DNA of 64,000 bases from Dehalococcoidia bacterium (GTDB taxonomy: Bacteria > Chloroflexota > Dehalococcoidia > Lucifugimonadales > Australimonadaceae), in assembly GCA_965116015.1 (NCBI GenBank), contig OZ220477.1, forward strand, positions 711,940 to 775,939, given 5' to 3'. The notes below the pieces were generated by a model that was given only the letters and a program-made list of their open reading frames with translations, did not search any database and was not told the origin of the DNA. Positions within the stretch are counted from its first letter, which is position 1; every line of letters starts with the position of its first letter. Made by a program: the position numbers and the translations under genes. Below are positions 37,894 through 64,000 of the stretch, piece by piece.

Positions 37894-38066
37894 CGTGTGC
37901 GGCCCCGCGACGCCCGAGCAACGTCCTGCCGCCCCCTTGCCTCGCCCCATAGCGTTCCCCCCGCGCGACCCTCTCCCCGCAGCGTCCCCCGTGTGCGGCC
38001 CCGCGACGCCCGAGCAACGTCCTGCCGCCTCTTGCCTCGCCCCTAACGTCCCCCCGCGCTACCCCG
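37894..38066. repeat. Two-copy 96-bp tandem repeat between the CRISPR array and icmF
   Basis: cgtgtgcggccccgcgacgcccgagcaacgtcctgccgcc...ttgcctcgcccc...ccccccgcgc at 37894 and 37990. Confidence 0.8.
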
Positions 38067-38089
38067 CTCCCCGCGATATACTCCGCGCA

Positions 38090-41041
38090 ATGCAACGCCC
38101 CCCTCGCTTCATCATCGCCACCCCCATCTGCGACGGCCACGACGTCGCCGCAGCTGCCATCACCCGCATCCTCCGCGCGGAAAGCGCCGAAGCCGTCTAC
38201 ATCGGCTTCAACAAATCCGCATCCCAGATCGCCAAAGCCGCCGCCGAAGAAGACGCCGACGCCATCGCCGTCAGCACATACAACGGCGGCCACATGTCCT
38301 TCCTCGCCGAAACCCTCAACCAACAGGCCAAACACGGTGTCGCCCGCGCCCCCCTCTTCGCCGGCGGAGGCGGATCCATCCGCGAAAGCGAAGTCCAGCC
38401 CCTCAAACGCCTCGGCGTCGCCAAAATCTACCGACCCCCGCTCGACCTCGCCGACGCCGTCCGCGATATGCTCTCCCTCGCCCAAACCGCCCGCGCCGAA
38501 CACGACGCCAACCCCGCCCCCAACCACGACGCTCCCCCATTCCGCGCCATCGCCGAGCGCCTCACCGCCATCGAGCGCGGAGCTACCCCCCAACAGCCTC
38601 CGCCCAGCAACCCTCTCCCTCGCGTCTGGGGCGTCGGCGGTCGCGGAGGCGCAGGGAAAAGCTCCCTCATCGACGAACTCCTCCTCCGCTTCCTCCACTC
38701 CAACAACGGCAACATCGCAGTCCTCGCCGCAGACCCAACCCTCGGCGACCGCCTCCGAATGCTCCACTGCTACTCCCCGCGCGTCTTCCTCCGCTCCGTC
38801 CGCGTCGGACCCGGCCAATCCGCCGAAACCACGCTCGCCCCCCTCATCGACGAACTCCGAGCCCACAACTTCGCCCTCATACTCATCGAATCCGTCGGCC
38901 TCGGCCAGAACGAACTCGGCGTCGCGCGCCTCGCCGACGCCTCCATCTTCTGTATGACCCCCGAATACGGCTCCGACATCCAGCTCGAGAAAGAAGCCCT
39001 CCTCCAGCAAGCCGAAATCGTCGTGATGAACAAGCGCGACTTCCCCCAGGCCGAAGCCCGCGCAGCCCGCGTTCGCCGCTTCCTCCCCGACGACCGCCCC
39101 CTCTTCCTCGCCGAGGCCCGACGCTTCGGCGACCCCGGCGTCTCCTCGCTGTTCGCCGAAATCGCCCGCCGCTCCGGCCTCCAGTCCGGCAACCCCCCAA
39201 CTCCACCCGCAGCCGCGGCTCCGCCCGTCCCCTTCGCCCAGCGCGCCTACCTCGGAGCCATCGTCGACGCCCACGAGAACTACTACGCCGAATCCGAAAC
39301 CGAAGCCTCCCTCGCAGCCGTAGGAAACCCCTCCCGCGACTACCAAACCGAATTCAACCGCCTCTGGAGCGACTACGGCTTCGACGGCGACCTAGGCGGC
39401 GCCTCCATCAACAACGGCGTCGCCTACCGCAACGTTAACGGCAAACCCGCGCCCGTCGCCCGAATGACCACCACCGGCATCTGGGTCCCCGTCCTCGGCC
39501 TGCCCGACCGCGACGCCGCCCCCCAACAGATCGTCCGGTACCTCTACAAACAGAACGCCCCCGGACATTTCCCCTTCACCGAAGGCGCCTACCCCCACCG
39601 CCGCCGCGACGAAGACCCCATCCGTATGTTCGCCGGCCTCGGCCTCCCCGAAACCACCAACCAGCGCTTCCACCTGCTCGCCGCAGGACACGGCTCCCCG
39701 CGCCTCTCCACCGCCTTCGACTCCCTAACCCTCTACGGCCTCGACTCCGACGAGCCCGGAGCCCTCGCCAAAGTCGGCGAAGGCGGCGTCGCGCTCGACA
39801 CCATCGACGATATGCTCCGCCTCTACGACGGATTCAACCTCGAACAAACCTCCGTCTCCCTCACCATCAACGGCCCCGCCCCAACAATCATGGCCCTCTT
39901 CCTCGCCGCCGCACGCCGCCGGGGAGCAGACTGGCGGAAACTCCGAGGCACCATCCAAACCGACATCCTCAAAGAAGTCCAGGCACAGAACGAAGCCCTC
40001 TTCCCCCTCGAACCATCCCTCCGGCTCCTCGGCGATATGATCGAGCACACACTCCGCGAGGCCCCCTCCTGGCATCCCATCTCCATCTCCGGCTACCACA
40101 TCGGCGAAGCCGGAGCCAACCCCGTCCAGGAACTCGCCTTCACCCTCGCCAACGCCTTCACCTACGTCGAAATCCTCAAAGCCCGCGGCCTCTCCCCCGA
40201 AGAATTCACCCGACGCTTCTCCTTCTTCTTCACCTCCGGCTCCGAACTCGAATTCAACGCCCTCGGACGCGTCGCCCGCCGCATCTGGGCCATCGCCCTC
40301 AAACAACGCTACCGCGTCCACGGCCCAGGCCTCGCCCTCCGCTTCCACAGCCAAACCTCAGGACGATCCCTCCAGGACTCCGAACCCCTCCACAACCTCG
40401 CCCGCGTCGCCATCCAGGCCGAACACGCCCTCCACAACAACGCCAACTCCCTCCACACCAACTCCTACAAAGAAACCTACACCACCCCCGAAGAAGACGA
40501 CGTCCGACTAGCAATCGGCAGCCAGCAAATCCCCCTTATGGAAAGCGGCGACTTCGCCTTCACCGAAAACCTCCACCAAGGCGCCTACGGCCTCTCCTTC
40601 CTCGAAGACGAAGTCGAACGCGCCGTCCACCGCATCTTCCGCGAAATCGACCGCCAGGGCGGCGTCCTCCCAGCCATCGAAAACGAGTACTTCCGCACCG
40701 TCATCCAGGAAGAAGTCCAGCGCGAACGACGCGCAATGCGCAAGGGCGAACGCAAAATCGTCGGCGTCAACTACCTCGTCTCAGCCAACCCAGACTCCAA
40801 ACCCCGCGGCGGAATCGTCCACATCCCTATGCAAGAGAAACGCCGCCAGGCCGCCCGAACCCGCGCATTCAAGCGCGCGCACGCCTCCCAGGCCAAGCGC
40901 GCCCTCGACAACCTCCAGCGCGTCGCAGCCTCCCGCGACAACGCCTTTGAAGCCATCCTCCACGCCGTCGAACACGCCACCGTCGGACAGATCACCCACG
41001 CCCTCTGGGAAGTCTGGGGACGCTTCCGCCCTAGTATGTAA
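38090..41041 (+). CDS. icmF: Fused isobutyryl-CoA mutase (B12-binding domain + MeaB-like GTPase + mutase catalytic domain)
   Basis: N-terminal B12 domain (PICDGHDVAAAAI), P-loop GVGGRGGAGKSSLIDEL, then a methylmalonyl-CoA mutase-like barrel (FTEGAYPHRRRDEDP, TNQRFH, YHIGEAGANPVQELAF). TATACT box 7 nt before the ATG suggests a leaderless mRNA. Confidence 0.85.
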   Translation: MQRPPRFIIATPICDGHDVAAAAITRILRAESAEAVYIGFNKSASQIAKAAAEEDADAIAVSTYNGGHMSFLAETLNQQAKHGVARAPLFAGGGGSIRESEVQPLKRLGVAKIYRPPLDLADAVRDMLSLAQTARAEHDANPAPNHDAPPFRAIAERLTAIERGATPQQPPPSNPLPRVWGVGGRGGAGKSSLIDELLLRFLHSNNGNIAVLAADPTLGDRLRMLHCYSPRVFLRSVRVGPGQSAETTLAPLIDELRAHNFALILIESVGLGQNELGVARLADASIFCMTPEYGSDIQLEKEALLQQAEIVVMNKRDFPQAEARAARVRRFLPDDRPLFLAEARRFGDPGVSSLFAEIARRSGLQSGNPPTPPAAAAPPVPFAQRAYLGAIVDAHENYYAESETEASLAAVGNPSRDYQTEFNRLWSDYGFDGDLGGASINNGVAYRNVNGKPAPVARMTTTGIWVPVLGLPDRDAAPQQIVRYLYKQNAPGHFPFTEGAYPHRRRDEDPIRMFAGLGLPETTNQRFHLLAAGHGSPRLSTAFDSLTLYGLDSDEPGALAKVGEGGVALDTIDDMLRLYDGFNLEQTSVSLTINGPAPTIMALFLAAARRRGADWRKLRGTIQTDILKEVQAQNEALFPLEPSLRLLGDMIEHTLREAPSWHPISISGYHIGEAGANPVQELAFTLANAFTYVEILKARGLSPEEFTRRFSFFFTSGSELEFNALGRVARRIWAIALKQRYRVHGPGLALRFHSQTSGRSLQDSEPLHNLARVAIQAEHALHNNANSLHTNSYKETYTTPEEDDVRLAIGSQQIPLMESGDFAFTENLHQGAYGLSFLEDEVERAVHRIFREIDRQGGVLPAIENEYFRTVIQEEVQRERRAMRKGERKIVGVNYLVSANPDSKPRGGIVHIPMQEKRRQAARTRAFKRAHASQAKRALDNLQRVAASRDNAFEAILHAVEHATVGQITHALWEVWGRFRPSM

Positions 41042-59897: not shown

Positions 59898-60854
59898 CTA
59901 ACCAGCCTCGAACGCCTTCCGCAACTCCGAACCCGCCTCCGCTATCGCCGTCCACGTCTGATCGAACGGCGCCCCCGCATTGAAAAACCCGTGAATCATC
60001 CCCTCATACCGCGTAACCCGCGCCGGAACCCCCGCCGACCGCAGAAGCTCCCCATACTCCTCGCCCTCATCCCGCAGCGGATCAAACTCCGCCGTCAGCA
60101 CATACGCCGGAGGCAACCCCGACAGATCCCCCGCAACGCTCGGAACCGCATACCCGCTCCCCGCATCATCACCCCGCGCATAACAATCCCAGAAATACGC
60201 CATCGTCTCCAGATCCAAACCGTAACCCGCACCATTCTCCCGATACGACGCCCGACCAAAATCCCGCGACGTAACCGGATAAATCAACGACTGATGCGCC
60301 AACCGCGGACCTCCCCGATCGCGCGCCAGCAGCGCAACCGCCGCCGCAAGATTGCCCCCCGCGCTTGCCCCCGCCACCGCAAGCCTCGACCCATCGCCTC
60401 CCAGCTCCCCCGCATTCTCCTGCGCCCAAACCGTCGCCGCATAACAATCGTCCAGCGGAATCGGAAACGGATGCTCCGGCGACAACCGATACCCCACCGA
60501 CGCCACAATACTCCCCGACGCATTCGCCAGCGCACGGCACGTCGCATCATTCGTCTCGATATTCCCCACCACCCAACCGCCCCCATGAAACCACATCGTA
60601 ACCGGCAAGACAGCCCCTCCCCCGGCGGCCAGCTCTCCCTCAACCGCGCCCCCGCCTGCCGGAACATACACCCGCACCGGAACATCCCCATGCGGACCCG
60701 GAACCAACCGATCCTCCACCCGCGCCACCTCCGGCCCCGCCACCCTCGGCGCCGCCGCCTGCAGCGCCCGAGCCTCCGCCGGACTCACCTCATGCGGCCG
60801 AGGCGTCCCCGCCCGCTGCGCCAGCGACTCCGCCGCCTGTGGATCAAGACCCAT
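59898..60854 (-). CDS. Alpha/beta hydrolase, hormone-sensitive-lipase-type esterase
   Basis: Oxyanion motif HGGGW, nucleophile elbow GASAGG, C-terminal HGF. Start taken at MGLDPQAA. Confidence 0.8.
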   Translation of the reverse strand: MGLDPQAAESLAQRAGTPRPHEVSPAEARALQAAAPRVAGPEVARVEDRLVPGPHGDVPVRVYVPAGGGAVEGELAAGGGAVLPVTMWFHGGGWVVGNIETNDATCRALANASGSIVASVGYRLSPEHPFPIPLDDCYAATVWAQENAGELGGDGSRLAVAGASAGGNLAAAVALLARDRGGPRLAHQSLIYPVTSRDFGRASYRENGAGYGLDLETMAYFWDCYARGDDAGSGYAVPSVAGDLSGLPPAYVLTAEFDPLRDEGEEYGELLRSAGVPARVTRYEGMIHGFFNAGAPFDQTWTAIAEAGSELRKAFEAG

Positions 60855-60934
60855 CTCGCCCTCCCAACCCCCAGAATCCCCCCGATTATACCCACCCCCC
60901 CGCCAACCCGCCCCGCGACCCCTCGACCCCGCTC

Positions 60935-63832
60935 CTACGCCCGAACCTCGCCCTCCTCTCCCCATGGCCCCATCCACCACTCCAACCTCCCGCCCGCATT
61001 CTCATACGCCTCGCGATCCGTCGTCACCCTCCGCGTAGACCCCCACGGACTCGTCACATCCCAATGCTTCCCCCCTCTCCCTGCCGCCGTCCAGCCGGCG
61101 GGCAGCAGCCCCGGCTCGCGCAAAGGCCGCTCCAGATCCTCCAGCCCCACCTTCGGACGCAGAGGCTCCTCTGGCCCCTCCCAATCCGCGTTCAGCCGGT
61201 TGATATCGAACACAGACCGCTGCATCTCCTCCAGACGCTCCAGCTCAGCCTCAGCATCCCTCTCATCCCGGATAATCCCCTGAATCCCCGCCGCAATGAT
61301 CGGCGGGTACTCCCCCACATTCTTCGTTATGCTCTCGAAACGCCGCGCAAGAGCCTCATACGCGTCATGCTCCGCCGTCCCCGCATAGAACAGATTCACC
61401 ACATCCACCACCTCACGCTCCTGACCGATACGATCAATCCGACCCGCCCGCTGCTCCAGCGTCATCGGATTCCACGGAATATCGTAATTCACCACCGCCG
61501 AACAGAACTGCAGATTCAACGACTCCGACGCCGTCTCCGTGCACAGAAGAACCCCGCCCTCCTCCCTCCTGAACGCCTCCAGACGCTCCCCCCGATCCCC
61601 CAAACCCCCATCCCCGCCGTAAAGCTCAACAACGTGCCGCCCAGACCCCCGCAGATGCTCCCCCAGCCACCGCTGCGTATCCCGGAACTGCGTGAACAAC
61701 AGAATATGCCGGTGCCCCTTCCCCCCAAGCTCATCCAGAACGCCACCCAAACGCTCCCGCTTGCTATCCCTCTCCGACAACCTCTCAGCCGCCTCCGCCG
61801 CCTCAAGCAACCCCCCAGGATCCGATGCCGACCCCAACCTCCCCGCCTCGCTCTCCGCAACCTCATCCAGATCAGCATCGTCCAGCAGAGCAGCCCACTC
61901 GTCAGAATCCAGAAGCAACCCCGACTCGTCCGACTCCCCCCGACCCGCCACATTCCGCAACGTCTGCGCGTACGCAACCAGCGACGACCCCATCCGCTTC
62001 CGGAAAATCGTCGTGATAAACCCCAACGCCTGACCCGTGATCCCACGGCTCCCGTAACGCTGCTCCACCAACGGCTTGATCCCCTCGTACAGACCCCGCT
62101 CCTCCGCCGTCATCTCTATCGTCACGTCCCCCGCCCGACGATGAGGCACAGGAGCGTCCAGCAAACCCCGGCTCCGATACTCCCGCAGCAACTTCCGCGT
62201 ATGACGGCTCATCAACCGACGCCCCGGAGCATCCCGCTCCATCGCCCTCGCCGACCTCTCACGCTCCCCAGCATCCGCCAGCCGGCGCGCGATATAGTCA
62301 TCGTTGTCGCTATCAAGCAGGAAATCCCCCGACCCCAACTCCGACTCTAACCCCGACGCCCTCCGCCACAACTCCCGACGCCGCTTCCAACGCCCAACAT
62401 CAACCCCCCCATCCCCAGACTCCCCCTCATAGAACTGACGATACTCCTCCGAACCCCAACCCTCCGGCTCAAGCAACTCCAGCAATCCCCACAACTCCGC
62501 CTCATTCAGCTGCATCGGCGTCGCCGTCAGCAACAGCAACTCCCGAGTCCTCCGCGACAGCTCCCGCAACAACTTCAGATACTGATTAGGCTGACGCCGA
62601 GCATCGATATCCACATCCCGGAACCGCGCCCGATGCGCCTCATCCACAATAACAATGTCATACTCCCCGCACGTCGCCAGAAACTGCTCCGAATTCCGAA
62701 CCAGCCACTGATGACCCGCTATCCCCAGCGGAACCCCAACCCACGGAGGATCCCCCGAACCCTCGCTCCGACCATCCCGATACGAAAGACCCCGCGCGTC
62801 AACGATCGGCGCCTCAATCGCAAACTTCATCTTCAACTCGCTCTGCCACTGCTTCCCCGCAGCCTTCGGAGCAATCACCAGAGCCCGCCCCGCACGCCCC
62901 TGATTCAACCGCGTCCGCAGAACAACCCCCGCCTGCAACGTCTTCCCCAAACCCACCTCGTCCGCGATCAACCGCCGCGCCGCAGCAGCCCCCACATTCG
63001 CCCGCCGGAACCGCTCCTGATGCGGCCACAGCCTCGCCGGCATCGTCGCCGCCGTACTGTCCGCATCGCTCGCCAGACCCTCCCGGATCCGCCGCCAGTA
63101 CTCCTCAGCCTCGCCATCCTCCGCCCCGTAATCCTCCCCAACCTCCCGGATAACCCCCGGAGGCGACTGCGGAGCCTGCGACGCAATGTACTCCCGGAAA
63201 TGCGCCGGCAGATCGATCACCCTCACCCCCGACGCCGCGTTCTCCCACAACAACCGAAACTCCCGCTCCGCACCCTCCAGATGCTCCAGAGTCCCCCAGC
63301 TCGTATACACATGAACCGACTCCCAATTCGCCTCCCACGAATGCCGCGTCTCATTCACGCTCCCCGTAAACGCCGCCCGATTCCCCCACGCATCCTCCAC
63401 GATCCCGCTCTTCGCGTGAAAGCTGTCCTCCCCCCGAATCGCAACCTTCACCTCCATCAACCCGTTCGCCACAAGCCAGTACGCCAGACCCAAAGGAGTG
63501 CGCCCCGCGATATCCTCCGCCTCCGTCAGACGCAGATCCTCCAGACTCACCGCCTCGCGCAGAACCGCCTCCCCATCCACCTGATTCCGATACAGCGCCT
63601 CCAGCGTCTCCCGATTCACCGCATGATCGCACACCACCCGTATCCGGCCGCCGTTCCGAACCAAACCCGCCGTACCCTCAGCCGCCGCCCTCAAACCGCT
63701 CGCGCTGAACGTATACGTCGTCCGATCGTACCGAACCGCCTCCCCCAGCAACGGCTCATACAACCCCGCCACCAGATCCGGACAATCGCCATGGTTGTAA
63801 ACCGCCCGCAACCCAATATCACTCAGCGCCAT
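60935..63832 (-). CDS. PLD-like nuclease domain fused to an SNF2-family helicase (965 aa)
   Basis: N-terminal single HKD-type motif FHAKSGIVED...GSVNET. SNF2 motifs LWPHQ, DEVGLGKT, VIVDEAHR, LLLTATPMQ. Helicase-C motifs VLLCTETASESLNLQ and NPMTLEQRAGRIDRIGQ. Confidence 0.8.
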   Translation of the reverse strand: MALSDIGLRAVYNHGDCPDLVAGLYEPLLGEAVRYDRTTYTFSASGLRAAAEGTAGLVRNGGRIRVVCDHAVNRETLEALYRNQVDGEAVLREAVSLEDLRLTEAEDIAGRTPLGLAYWLVANGLMEVKVAIRGEDSFHAKSGIVEDAWGNRAAFTGSVNETRHSWEANWESVHVYTSWGTLEHLEGAEREFRLLWENAASGVRVIDLPAHFREYIASQAPQSPPGVIREVGEDYGAEDGEAEEYWRRIREGLASDADSTAATMPARLWPHQERFRRANVGAAAARRLIADEVGLGKTLQAGVVLRTRLNQGRAGRALVIAPKAAGKQWQSELKMKFAIEAPIVDARGLSYRDGRSEGSGDPPWVGVPLGIAGHQWLVRNSEQFLATCGEYDIVIVDEAHRARFRDVDIDARRQPNQYLKLLRELSRRTRELLLLTATPMQLNEAELWGLLELLEPEGWGSEEYRQFYEGESGDGGVDVGRWKRRRELWRRASGLESELGSGDFLLDSDNDDYIARRLADAGERERSARAMERDAPGRRLMSRHTRKLLREYRSRGLLDAPVPHRRAGDVTIEMTAEERGLYEGIKPLVEQRYGSRGITGQALGFITTIFRKRMGSSLVAYAQTLRNVAGRGESDESGLLLDSDEWAALLDDADLDEVAESEAGRLGSASDPGGLLEAAEAAERLSERDSKRERLGGVLDELGGKGHRHILLFTQFRDTQRWLGEHLRGSGRHVVELYGGDGGLGDRGERLEAFRREEGGVLLCTETASESLNLQFCSAVVNYDIPWNPMTLEQRAGRIDRIGQEREVVDVVNLFYAGTAEHDAYEALARRFESITKNVGEYPPIIAAGIQGIIRDERDAEAELERLEEMQRSVFDINRLNADWEGPEEPLRPKVGLEDLERPLREPGLLPAGWTAAGRGGKHWDVTSPWGSTRRVTTDREAYENAGGRLEWWMGPWGEEGEVRA

Positions 63833-64000
63833 CCGACTCTCCTCCCTCGCTTTCCCCTCCTTCGCTCACTGCTACCGCCCTAGCGCTCCCCCCGTCCAAC
63901 CCGGGCAGGCGAGGCTGCACCCCCGCCGGACGCGGAGGCTCCTCCCCATACAGCCCCTCCCACAGATTCCGCTGTGCCTCATAATCATCATGACCCGGCT
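63819..64000 (-). CDS. 3' end of an unidentified ORF that runs off the right edge and overlaps the helicase start by 14 nt
   Basis: My reverse-strand translation is ...PGHDDYEAQRNLWEGLYGEEPPRPAGVQPRLPGLDGGSARAVAVSEGGESEGGESDGAE*. G/T-ending codon usage matches the other - strand genes. It has no start inside the window, so it is missing from the ORF track. Confidence 0.35.
   Translation of the reverse strand, partial: PGHDDYEAQRNLWEGLYGEEPPRPAGVQPRLPGLDGGSARAVAVSEGGESEGGESDGAE

What the first reader, a model, noticed from the sequence alone, without database searches (positions are those of the whole stretch)
60935..64000. PLD-nuclease/SNF2-helicase fusion, translationally overlapped by an upstream ORF that continues beyond the window: a candidate defence or DNA-surveillance operon
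A single-HKD PLD-like domain (FHAKSGIVED..GSVNET) is fused to a complete SNF2 ATPase with a long insertion between the two helicase lobes and a ~110-aa C-terminal extension. PLD nucleases and SNF2 helicases occur as separate components of DISARM-type defence systems. A covalent fusion whose start codon is overlapped by 14 nt by the acidic-tailed upstream ORF suggests a multi-gene system that is only half visible here. The remaining partners (methylase, DUF1998-like, other) would lie to the right of position 64000.
Basis: partly seen in the sequence, partly recalled or inferred. Interest (0 to 1): 0.6.

Follow-up and report, generated by a model that had tools for sequence, protein, structure and literature searches.

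The report
MANTIS-like restriction operon, nuclease-helicase end
The window ends inside a four-gene, methylation-based anti-phage restriction system of an already described kind (MANTIS / Gao_RL / "BREX-related type 2"); only its nuclease-helicase effector and the last 60 codons of its DNA methylase are visible, so it is a real but largely ordinary defence locus.

Summary
A 965-aa ORF (60935-63832, minus strand) encodes one HKD/PLD nuclease domain fused to a complete Swi2/Snf2 ATPase. Its ATG is overlapped by 14 nt by an upstream ORF that runs off the window.

This is a defence operon and a methylase is a partner, but it is not DISARM-like. The overlapping ORF is itself the C-terminus of a ~1000-aa DUF1156 N6-adenine methyltransferase.

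In 39 of 40 related loci the helicase gene follows such a methylase. Most of these loci read DUF499 AAA+ ATPase, small DUF7680 protein, DUF1156 methylase, HKD-SNF2. Defence cargo (TIR, nuclease, toxin-antitoxin) is often embedded between these genes. No DUF1998/DrmA-type gene is conserved.

The order matches Gao_RL, also called BR type-2 (NAR 2026) and MANTIS (bioRxiv 2026). The window protein aligns collinearly with a canonical MtsD (27% identity), and H139 lies on the MtsD catalytic histidine.

One difference stands out. A DUF7680 protein replaces the DUF3780 protein MtsB, with no detectable sequence similarity. This sub-lineage also occurs on plasmids of Alphaproteobacteria, Cyanobacteria, Actinomycetota and Haloarchaea.

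The rest of the operon in this genome could not be retrieved. Interest is low to moderate.

Separately, the whole window shows an extraordinary strand composition skew.

The parts
63819..64000 (-). Last 60 codons plus stop of the upstream gene. This is the C-terminus of a DUF1156-type N6-adenine DNA methyltransferase (MtsC-like / HmaB-like). The gene continues beyond the window.
   Evidence: Translation. tblastn and the MAFFT alignment place the motif PGHDDYxAQRNLWxxLYGEEPPxPAxVQ at the extreme C-terminus of the ~900-1170-aa DUF1156 methylases encoded directly upstream of the helicase in related loci. Those methylases match Pfam DUF1156 and N6_N4_Mtase and PADLOC HmaB / DUF1156_MTase.
63819..63845 (-). 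Translational-coupling junction. GGAGG lies at 63845-63841, the helicase ATG at 63832-63830 and the methylase stop TGA at 63821-63819, giving a 14-nt overlap.
   Evidence: Read directly from the sequence. Relatives have comparable junctions, with -4 to -37 nt overlaps in L014, L015, L017, L024, L029, L030, L042 and L046 and 4 nt in the Aminobacter plasmid.
60935..63832 (-). 965-aa HKD/PLD nuclease fused to a Swi2/Snf2 ATPase. This is the MtsD-like effector and the last gene of the operon.
   Evidence: It aligns collinearly (residues 24-846, 27% identity, E 6e-49) with the 'phospholipase D-like domain-containing anti-phage protein' of a canonical DUF499-DUF3780-DUF1156 operon on P. fluorescens plasmid pG69.
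63188..63775 (-). N-terminal single-HKD (PLD-family) nuclease domain, residues about 20-215. The HKD...GSxNE signature is at residues 139-161 (63350-63418).
   Evidence: Pfam PLDc_2. PADLOC PbeA model over residues 3-402, E 1.8e-47. H139, K141, D147, G157, S158, N160 and E161 are invariant. H139 aligns with the histidine at position 122 of the pG69 protein, the residue number given for the catalytic histidine of P. aeruginosa MtsD in the MANTIS preprint.
62423..63037 (-). Snf2 ATPase lobe 1 (residues about 266-470) with Walker A GLGKT (K297) and DEAH (397-400).
   Evidence: Pfam SNF2-rel_dom, ResIII and DEAD. Invariant motifs. RapA is the best solved relative by sequence and by fold.
61763..62422 (-). 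Mostly helical insertion of about 220-235 residues between the two ATPase lobes (residues about 471-690).
   Evidence: Gap between the Pfam domains. The AF2 model shows helices 479-704 with mixed confidence. The same region aligns, with gaps, to canonical MtsD. [quoted passage not shown]
61295..61762 (-). Snf2 ATPase lobe 2 (residues about 691-846) with motif VI QRAGRIDRIGQ.
   Evidence: Pfam Helicase_C at 704-803. Invariant columns 784-804.
60935..61294 (-). Lineage-specific C-terminal extension (residues about 847-965, plus stop). It includes a small Trp-rich module of three beta-strands and helices (about 895-955) of unknown function.
   Evidence: It lies beyond the alignment with canonical MtsD and with plasmid homologs, whose coverage stops at about residue 840. 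It is conserved among Chloroflexota homologs (W914, G920, W924, T937, T938, and W952, W953, G955, P956 nearly invariant). AF2 pLDDT is about 89-90 for 895-955. It has no Pfam match.

Best explanation
[quoted passage not shown] The visible parts are the C-terminus of the N6-adenine methyltransferase (MtsC-like, DUF1156) and, translationally coupled to it, the effector. The effector is a single-HKD PLD nuclease fused to a Swi2/Snf2 ATPase (MtsD-like).

The mechanism is inferred by homology with MANTIS. A DUF499 AAA+ ATPase and a small co-factor load and activate the methylase, which marks host DNA by adenine hemimethylation of a short asymmetric motif. When the same recognition complex meets unmodified motifs on incoming DNA, it licenses the effector. 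The effector works as a dimer so that two HKD halves (H139/K141) form one PLD active site. ATP hydrolysis by the Snf2 motor (K297, DEAH 397-400) drives cleavage.

The following are shown here: domain architecture, intact catalytic motifs, the coupling junction, the identity of the upstream fragment, and conserved synteny in relatives. The following are inferred: that this genome carries the DUF499 ATPase and a DUF7680 small protein just beyond position 64000, and all biochemical activities. In this sub-lineage the MtsB position is filled by a DUF7680 protein that shows no sequence similarity to DUF3780.
For: The best library matches are defence SNF2 helicases and PLD-helicases: PADLOC DrmD 3e-61, PLD_Helicase 4e-58, BrxHI 5e-58 and PbeA N-terminus 2e-47, and NCBIfam 'phospholipase D-like domain-containing anti-phage protein' 2e-93.

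The upstream fragment is a methylase C-terminus.

For synteny, 39 of 40 loci with a full-length homolog (38-66% identity) have a DUF1156 methylase immediately or within about 2.6 kb upstream. About 32 have the DUF7680 gene, and about the same number have a DUF499 ATPase upstream of it. The same four-gene operon is annotated on plasmids of Aminobacter, Nostoc, Rhodococcus and Halobacterium.

The canonical MANTIS-type operon on P. fluorescens pG69 has the same gene order. Its proteins are homologous and collinear with these: effector 27% identity, E 6e-49, with the catalytic His aligned; methylase E 3e-23; ATPase E 6e-20.

Literature: BR type-2 is defined as DUF499 + DUF3780 + DUF1156 MTase + HKD-Swi2/Snf2 (PMC12839542). 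The MANTIS mechanism and the dimeric MtsD structure are in bioRxiv 10.64898/2026.09.23.753747. Embedded defence genes are a hallmark of the related Hma systems (bioRxiv 10.1101/2024.01.29.577857). TIR, pPIWI-associated nuclease, PD-T4-10-like and VapBC cargo are embedded in the relatives.
Against: Only 60 codons of one partner are visible, and the rest of the operon in this genome could not be retrieved. It could therefore be truncated or rearranged.

Identity to canonical MANTIS proteins is low (20-27%). All NCBIfam scores are far below the equivalog cut-offs (314 vs 1100 for NF042964; 266 vs 610 for DrmD). The Pfam PLDc_2 score is marginal.

The MtsB-equivalent in relatives belongs to a different Pfam family (DUF7680, not DUF3780), with no profile similarity (hhalign probability 4.8%). 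The relatives' ATPase and methylase score better with PADLOC's Hma models than with its DUF499 / DUF1156_MTase models. The lineage is therefore not cleanly 'type-2'.

No member of the DUF7680 lineage has been tested experimentally, as far as I could find. Even for MANTIS, DNA cleavage by MtsD has not been reconstituted in vitro.
Confidence: 0.8

Rival explanations
1. It is a DISARM-type system, in which the protein is a covalent fusion of DrmC (PLD) and DrmD (SNF2). It would work with DrmA, DrmB (DUF1998) and a DrmMI methylase encoded to the right.
For: The PADLOC best hit by E-value is a DrmD model (3.4e-61). NCBIfam DISARM_DrmD gives 1.2e-78. Class 1 DISARM does combine an SNF2 helicase, a PLD protein and an adenine methylase (established knowledge).
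Against: The DrmD score (266 bits) is far below the equivalog cut-off of 610, and PLD_Helicase and BrxHI models score equally well. In about 40 related loci the 10 kb upstream is filled by DUF499, DUF7680, cargo and DUF1156 genes. No other conserved gene cluster, and nothing DrmA- or DUF1998-like, emerged from all-vs-all clustering. The same holds on annotated plasmids.
Confidence: 0.04
2. It belongs to Hma / BR type-1 (HmaA helicase, HmaB methylase, HmaC ATPase) rather than to the MANTIS-like type-2.
For: The relatives' methylases and ATPases score highest with PADLOC HmaB (186-276 bits) and HmaC (156-368 bits). HmaA matches the helicase at 1.4e-42. Embedded defence genes are typical of Hma.
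Against: Type-1/Hma helicases carry an N-terminal TUDOR domain and a C-terminal PD-(D/E)XK nuclease, and the operon has no small fourth gene (PMC12839542; PMC11232893). Here the N-terminus is an HKD nuclease, no PD-(D/E)XK domain is detected, and a small gene sits between ATPase and methylase. The truth may be an intermediate lineage of the same superfamily, so this rival differs in label more than in mechanism.
Confidence: 0.1
3. It is a stand-alone or decayed gene. One possibility is an orphan PLD-SNF2 enzyme acting alone, for example a SauUSI-like type IV restriction enzyme or a PbeA-like phosphorothioate-dependent nuclease. Another is a RapA-like housekeeping remodeller whose upstream partner is a remnant.
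For: RapA is the closest solved structure by sequence and by fold. The N-terminal 400 residues match PbeA models. Truncated helicase copies exist in some relatives (L036, L044, L045, L047). The operon cannot be seen here.
Against: The ORF is intact with all catalytic motifs, and it is translationally coupled to an in-frame methylase C-terminus. RapA has no HKD domain and is not methylase-linked. No dnd or pbeBCD genes appear in the relatives. Linkage to the methylase is seen in 39 of 40 loci.
Confidence: 0.06

Closest known systems
MANTIS (formerly Gao_RL / Gao_29; MtsA-D), P. aeruginosa; bioRxiv 10.64898/2026.09.23.753747
   Same: The gene order is the same: AAA+ DUF499 ATPase, small protein, DUF1156 N6A methylase, HKD/PLD-SF2 helicase effector. 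The effector is collinear with a canonical MtsD-type protein (27% identity, E 6e-49) and the catalytic His is aligned. The single HKD implies a dimeric composite active site. The methylase and ATPase are homologous.
   Different: The small protein in this lineage is DUF7680, not DUF3780. Identities are only 20-27%. The effector has an extra C-terminal Trp-rich module of about 120 aa. Relatives often carry embedded cargo genes. There are no experimental data for this lineage.
[quoted passage not shown]
   Same: The defining helicase synapomorphy is present: an N-terminal HKD endoDNase in place of TUDOR, on a RapA/BrxHII-like Swi2/Snf2 core. A DUF1156 methylase, a DUF499 ATPase and a small standalone gene lie inside the locus.
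   Different: 98% of type-2 loci are reported to carry DUF3780, whereas here the small gene is DUF7680. The ATPase and methylase look closer to type-1/Hma profiles.
Hma (HmaABC) / BR type-1; PMC8565338, PMC11232893, bioRxiv 10.1101/2024.01.29.577857
   Same: It shares the helicase-methylase-ATPase core and homologous DUF499 and DUF1156 proteins. The locus acts as a hotspot for embedded defence genes.
   Different: The HmaA nuclease is a C-terminal PD-(D/E)XK nickase and its N-terminus is TUDOR. Hma has three genes, not four.
DISARM class 1 (DrmA, DrmB, DrmC, DrmD, DrmMI)
   Same: It uses an SNF2 helicase, a PLD nuclease and an adenine methylase in one methylation-based defence system. DrmD profiles match the helicase core.
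   Different: The PLD and SNF2 proteins are separate in DISARM. DISARM is defined by DrmA plus DrmB (DUF1998), which are absent from all related loci. Its methylase is not DUF1156 and it has no DUF499 ATPase.
SauUSI (type IV restriction enzyme, PDB 7CLG) and other PLD-helicase restriction enzymes
   Same: It shares the PLD nuclease plus SF2 ATPase architecture acting as a dimer. The MANTIS preprint reports structural similarity of MtsD to SauUSI.
   Different: SauUSI is autonomous, carries its own target-recognition domain and cuts modified DNA. Here target choice is expected to come from the methylase/ATPase complex, and unmodified DNA is the target. SauUSI was not among the top 50 Foldseek hits of my medium-confidence model.
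RapA (E. coli RNA polymerase recycling Swi2/Snf2 ATPase)
   Same: It is the closest solved ATPase core by sequence (E 2e-31) and by fold (E 3e-18).
   Different: RapA has no nuclease domain, is a housekeeping single gene, and has an N-terminal Tudor-like RNAP-binding module instead of HKD.

Membership tests
MANTIS / BR type-2 (Gao_RL) | Effector with an N-terminal single HKD/PLD nuclease fused to a Swi2/Snf2-type SF2 ATPase, with no TUDOR domain | tested here: met
   The HKD and helicase motifs are invariant. The protein aligns collinearly with a PGAP-annotated 'phospholipase D-like domain-containing anti-phage protein' from a canonical operon. However, the NF042964 equivalog score is 314, well below the 1100 cut-off.
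MANTIS / BR type-2 (Gao_RL) | DUF1156-type N6-adenine methyltransferase encoded directly upstream of the effector on the same strand | tested here: met
   The window shows only the last 60 residues. They align with the extreme C-terminus of 15 DUF1156 methylases of related loci. Such a methylase is present in 39 of 40 related loci.
MANTIS / BR type-2 (Gao_RL) | DUF499 AAA+ ATPase (MtsA) in the operon | not testable with these tools
   It would lie beyond position 64000, and the contig could not be extended. It is present in relatives: Pfam DUF499 at 4e-29 to 7e-35 and PADLOC HmaC/DUF499, and it is annotated on plasmids.
MANTIS / BR type-2 (Gao_RL) | Small DUF3780 protein (MtsB) between the ATPase and the methylase | tested here: not met
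   This was tested on relatives only, because the position is off-window. The small gene there is Pfam DUF7680 (E 1e-8 to 1e-44). The control MtsB of pG69 hits DUF3780 at 4e-80. hhalign of the DUF7680 alignment against that MtsB gives probability 4.8%. Structural relatedness was not tested.
MANTIS / BR type-2 (Gao_RL) | Hemimethylation of an asymmetric 6-bp motif and ATP-dependent restriction of unmodified DNA | not testable with these tools
   This needs methylome data and phage or plasmid challenge.
DISARM | Core genes drmA (helicase) and drmB (DUF1998) adjacent to drmC (PLD) | tested here: not met
   This was tested on relatives. All-vs-all clustering of ORFs in 49 loci yields only DUF499, DUF7680, DUF1156, helicase, PD-T4-10_A-like/DUF6575, TIR and Uma2 clusters, plus antisense shadow ORFs. 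Plasmid annotations agree. The DrmD equivalog cut-off is not reached.
Hma / BR type-1 | Helicase with an N-terminal TUDOR and a C-terminal PD-(D/E)XK nuclease, in a three-gene operon | tested here: not met
   The N-terminus is an HKD domain. No PD-(D/E)XK match is found. The C-terminal 120 aa form a small beta/alpha module. A fourth small gene is present in relatives.
Pbe (PT-dependent exclusion, PbeABCD with DndCDEA) | pbeA linked to pbeBCD and dnd phosphorothioation genes | tested here: not met
   Only the N-terminal about 400 residues resemble PbeA models. No dnd- or pbeBCD-like conserved neighbours occur in relatives.
RapA | Housekeeping stand-alone Swi2/Snf2 with N-terminal RNAP-binding Tudor-like domains and no nuclease | tested here: not met
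   The NCBIfam RapA score is 170 against a 576 cut-off. The N-terminus is HKD. The gene is operon-linked to a methylase.

The most novel reading that the evidence does not exclude
The DUF499 - DUF7680 - DUF1156 - HKD-Snf2 operon may be a distinct, so far undescribed and untested subtype of the BREX-related restriction systems. It is seen here in Chloroflexota MAGs and on plasmids of four other phyla. In it a small protein unrelated in sequence to MtsB would act as methylase co-activator, and the effector has gained a Trp-rich C-terminal module.

A more speculative extension follows. MANTIS-type restriction is strongest on inverted pairs of asymmetric sites. The near-total G/T depletion of one strand in this host would force most copies of an asymmetric motif into one orientation per replichore. 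That would give intrinsic protection from self-restriction.
Probability: 0.3. Interest if true: 0.5.

Novelty: new variant of a known kind. Interest (0 to 1): 0.27.

Why it matters
For the window itself, the result mainly tidies annotation. A gene that pipelines label 'SNF2-related protein' is the nuclease-motor effector of a MANTIS-like restriction-modification system. The neighbouring ORF fragment is its methylase.

More broadly, the comparison shows that a widespread sister lineage of MANTIS swaps the essential co-regulator MtsB (DUF3780) for an unrelated-looking DUF7680 protein. This lineage spans Chloroflexota, Alphaproteobacteria, Cyanobacteria, Actinomycetota and Haloarchaea. NCBI's anti-phage models do not name it.

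That makes it a natural experiment for what the small subunit does in ATPase-assisted hemimethylation. It is also an annotation gap worth closing. The relatives are also rich sources of embedded candidate defence genes.

Tried and rejected
Extending the contig to the right failed by four routes:
- Exact-protein look-up of the 965-aa product found nothing, although the sequence is in the protein collection on a 2.39-Mb contig.
- Look-up of the downstream esterase from Met43 found nothing.
- A protein search with the 59-aa methylase fragment found no candidate.
- An exact 42-mer from 63950-63991 had no hit in metagenome contigs.

DISARM, Pbe, Hma type-1 and RapA memberships were considered and rejected; see the membership test.

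I looked for the reference loci (Aminobacter, Nostoc and P. fluorescens accessions) in the supplements of PMC12839542, to see how that paper classifies the DUF7680 lineage. None were found in the text held. A literature search for 'DUF7680' returned nothing.

The promoter/terminator scan of 59-64 kb gave no more than chance.

The AF2 model is only of medium quality (pLDDT 70, pTM 0.50). I used it only for the ATPase-core match to RapA and for the secondary structure of the C-terminal module. I drew no conclusions about domain packing or dimerisation.

The apparent 46-nt overlap with the downstream esterase ORF probably reflects the longest-ORF start. The LipP1 profile begins at residue 48. The esterase is not conserved next to the helicase in relatives, so I treat it as outside the system.


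Full report
OBSERVATION

The minus strand carries one uninterrupted ORF at 60935-63832 (965 aa), starting at the first available start codon.

Pfam finds a PLD-like domain at residues 122-186 (28.6 bits, marginally above the cut-off), an SNF2-related N-lobe at 288-464 and Helicase_C at 704-803.

In an alignment of 31 homologs of 44-100% identity, the following are invariant:
- the HKD signature (H139, K141, D147, G157, S158, N160, E161)
- Walker A (DEVGLGKT, 291-298)
- DEAH (397-400)
- motif III (TATP)
- motif VI (QRxGRxDRxGQ, 794-804)

The conserved N-terminus MxLxDLxL..YNH supports the annotated start.

The upstream ORF stops at TGA 63821-63819 and the helicase ATG is at 63832-63830. A GGAGG lies 8 nt upstream of the ATG. 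The upstream ORF runs off the window after 60 codons and ends in an acidic tail. Every descriptive element of the finding is therefore confirmed.

WHAT THE PROTEIN RESEMBLES

PADLOC models of defence SNF2 helicases match at 1e-42 to 1e-61: DrmD, PLD_Helicase, BrxHI/II, DrmA, DpdE and HmaA. PbeA models cover the N-terminal 400 residues.

The best NCBIfam model is NF042964, 'phospholipase D-like domain-containing anti-phage protein' (2e-93). Its score of 314 bits is far below the 1100-bit equivalog cut-off. DrmD (266 vs 610) and RapA (170 vs 576) also fail their cut-offs. The protein is thus a relative of these curated families, not a member of any of them.

RapA is the closest solved structure both by sequence and by Foldseek with a medium-quality AF2 model (pLDDT 70). 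PMC12839542 reports the same RapA relationship for BrxHII, of which the BREX-related helicases are homologous counterparts.

WHAT THE UPSTREAM ORF IS

I could not extend the contig, so I used relatives. A scan of one genome per species returned 80 loci. The 58-66% identical homologs are all from Dehalococcoidia or Caldilineaceae MAGs.

The window's 60-residue fragment matches the motif PGHDDYxAQRNLWxxLYGEEPPxPAxVQ. In the relatives this motif sits at the very C-terminus of a ~900-1170-aa ORF upstream of the helicase gene. Those ORFs are DUF1156 plus N6_N4-methylase proteins and match PADLOC HmaB and DUF1156_MTase.

The acidic-tailed ORF is therefore the end of the system's methyltransferase. 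In L010 and L011 (57-148 nt gap) and in L014, L015, L017, L024, L029, L030, L042 and L046 (overlapping) the methylase gene abuts or overlaps the helicase gene, as in the window. In the closest relatives an extra gene of about 300 codons is inserted between them.

THE WHOLE SYSTEM IN RELATIVES

I clustered all ORFs of 49 loci and assigned families. The conserved order is:
- DUF499 AAA+ ATPase (~980 aa; HmaC/DUF499 models)
- DUF7680 protein (~145 aa)
- variable cargo
- DUF1156 methylase
- optional cargo
- HKD-Snf2

A methylase precedes the helicase in 39 of 40 loci with a full-length homolog. The exception, L035, has only 1.5 kb of upstream sequence. The DUF7680 gene was found in about 32 loci.

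The cargo includes the following:
- TIR proteins (PDC-S66/ThsB-like)
- a pPIWI-associated nuclease
- one to four tandem, diverged copies of a PD-T4-10_A-like/DUF6575 gene pair

No DrmA- or DUF1998-like cluster is conserved. Nothing is conserved downstream of the helicase, which is the last gene.

In the window, the downstream genes are housekeeping or metabolic:
- an esterase
- a TPP enzyme pair
- a glutamine-synthetase-like gene
- PPIase
- transaldolase
- 6PGD
- GlmS
- Lgt
- a methylmalonyl-CoA mutase-MeaB fusion

The operon's 3' end therefore abuts core genes.

The same four-gene operon is annotated on plasmids of Aminobacter, Nostoc (with VapBC embedded), Rhodococcus and Halobacterium. PGAP calls these genes 'DUF499', 'hypothetical', 'DUF1156' and 'SNF2-related'.

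COMPARISON WITH WHAT IS KNOWN

Three sets of literature bear on this.

[quoted passage not shown] Type-1 equals Hma: helicase with TUDOR plus a C-terminal PD-(D/E)XK. Type-2 has a helicase with an N-terminal HKD endoDNase plus a standalone DUF3780 gene. Type-3 has PglZ and iSTAND.

- The preprint 10.64898/2026.09.23.753747 renames Gao_RL (BR type-2) as MANTIS. It shows that MtsA (DUF499) and MtsB are needed to load and activate the methylase MtsC for hemimethylation of asymmetric 6-bp sites. Restriction needs all four proteins and both ATPases, and inverted pairs of unmodified sites are preferred. MtsD is a dimer whose two HKD domains form one PLD site, with catalytic H122.

- Hma loci are known hotspots for embedded defence genes. 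HmaA has been shown to defend against T4.

As a control I retrieved a canonical operon from P. fluorescens plasmid pG69. PGAP annotates it as anti-phage-associated DUF499, DUF3780, DUF1156 and a PLD anti-phage protein.

- The window protein aligns with its MtsD homolog over residues 24-846 (27% identity, E 6e-49). H139 lies opposite His122.
- The relatives' methylase (E 3e-23) and ATPase (E 6e-20) are likewise homologous.
- The small proteins are not detectably related. The control hits DUF3780 at 4e-80, all members of our lineage hit DUF7680, and hhalign gives 4.8% probability.
- The relatives' ATPase and methylase also score better with Hma models than with PADLOC's DUF499 / DUF1156_MTase models.

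The lineage therefore works like MANTIS and belongs to the BR superfamily. It is a variant that fails one defining feature of type-2, the DUF3780 gene.

MECHANISM

These points are shown:
- an intact single-HKD nuclease fused to an intact Snf2 motor
- translational coupling to the methylase gene
- conserved linkage to DUF499 and DUF7680 genes in relatives

These points are inferred from MANTIS:
- the ATPase and small protein load the methylase, which hemimethylates an asymmetric motif on host DNA
- unmodified motifs on invading DNA are recognised by the same complex
- that complex licenses a dimer of this protein, whose paired HKD halves form one active site, to cut DNA in an ATP-dependent way

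The 120-residue Trp-rich C-terminal module (confident in the model, conserved in Chloroflexota homologs, absent from canonical MtsD) has no assigned role.

I put 0.8 on the statement that this is the effector plus methylase end of such a system. The DISARM reading gets about 0.04, pure Hma type-1 about 0.1, and orphan, decayed or housekeeping about 0.06.

VERDICT

This is a new variant of a known kind. The kind was described computationally in 2013-2026, validated as Gao_RL in 2020, and dissected mechanistically in 2026. A specialist would not be surprised by it.

The modest added value is twofold. The DUF7680 sub-lineage is recognised here, and NCBI's anti-phage-named models leave it unnamed. 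Interest is 0.27.

SIDE OBSERVATION

The whole 64-kb window has an extreme strand asymmetry. GC skew is -0.31 overall, drifting from about -0.2 to about -0.45.

At third codon positions the plus strand almost lacks G and T, whichever strand is coding. GC3 skew is about 0.7-0.8 and AT3 skew about 0.8-0.9 in absolute value. This is strong enough to double the glycine content of the helicase relative to its ortholog.

Only one related genome sampled, the one carrying L037, shows anything similar. This deserves its own follow-up.

Noticed in passing
window 1-64000 (whole window); also L037 (OZ242043.1): There is an extreme strand compositional asymmetry independent of gene orientation. Plus-strand GC skew is -0.31 overall, drifting from about -0.2 at 1-16 kb to -0.40 to -0.48 at 48-64 kb. 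At third codon positions GC3 skew is about -0.8 and AT3 skew about +0.8 for plus-strand genes, with the mirror image for minus-strand genes (for example the helicase, +0.72 / -0.90). Amino-acid composition is shifted: Gly 10.8% and Glu 10.9% in the helicase, against 5.3% and 7.4% in its 65%-identical ortholog. Other related loci have mild skew. Only L037 is similar (+0.28 overall). The magnitude and the gradient look unusual for a bacterial chromosome. One literature search found no description for sponge-type Chloroflexota.
   Followed up: partly
L041 1231-6124; L032 1910-5709; L037 3201-5543; L001 5331-5732 (related loci, not the window): One to four tandem, diverged copies of a two-gene cassette are embedded between the DUF7680 gene and the methylase gene of the homologous systems. 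Copies are 31-67% identical to each other within a locus. The cassette is a PD-T4-10_A-like protein of about 125 aa plus a DUF6575 protein of about 385 aa. It looks like a small array of diversified paralogous defence modules.
   Followed up: partly
L003 8568-9476 (also L004, L005, L018, L043); L001 9064-9945; L082 8312-8955: Single genes are inserted between the methylase and helicase genes in relatives. They are a TIR-domain protein (PADLOC PDC-S66/ThsB-like), a predicted pPIWI-associating nuclease (pP_pnuc_1), or a VapBC pair on a Nostoc plasmid. The window has none, since its methylase and helicase genes overlap by 14 nt.
   Followed up: partly
L012 + L041 (OY282456.1); L037 + L045 (OZ242043.1); L017 + L049 (OZ241860.1); L025 + L047 (OZ243964.1); L011 13112-16348; L022 13076-20359: Several of these MAG chromosomes carry two copies of the system, some of them truncated. 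Others carry a second, different HKD+Snf2 gene (PADLOC C3a139 type) or a second helicase/methylase pair immediately downstream.
   Followed up: no
window 37895-41041 (+): A single 1048-aa ORF combines a B12-binding domain, a MeaB-like GTPase and a methylmalonyl-CoA mutase catalytic domain. This is an IcmF-like fused mutase. It is ordinary, but it is a useful marker that this side of the window is core metabolism.
   Followed up: no
window 59898-60980 (-): The downstream LipP1-family hormone-sensitive-lipase-type esterase scores 363 bits, above its 350-bit NCBIfam cut-off. Its longest ORF overlaps the helicase stop by 46 nt, but the profile starts at residue 48, so the real start is probably Met43 (60854). 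That leaves an intergenic gap of about 80 nt.
   Followed up: partly
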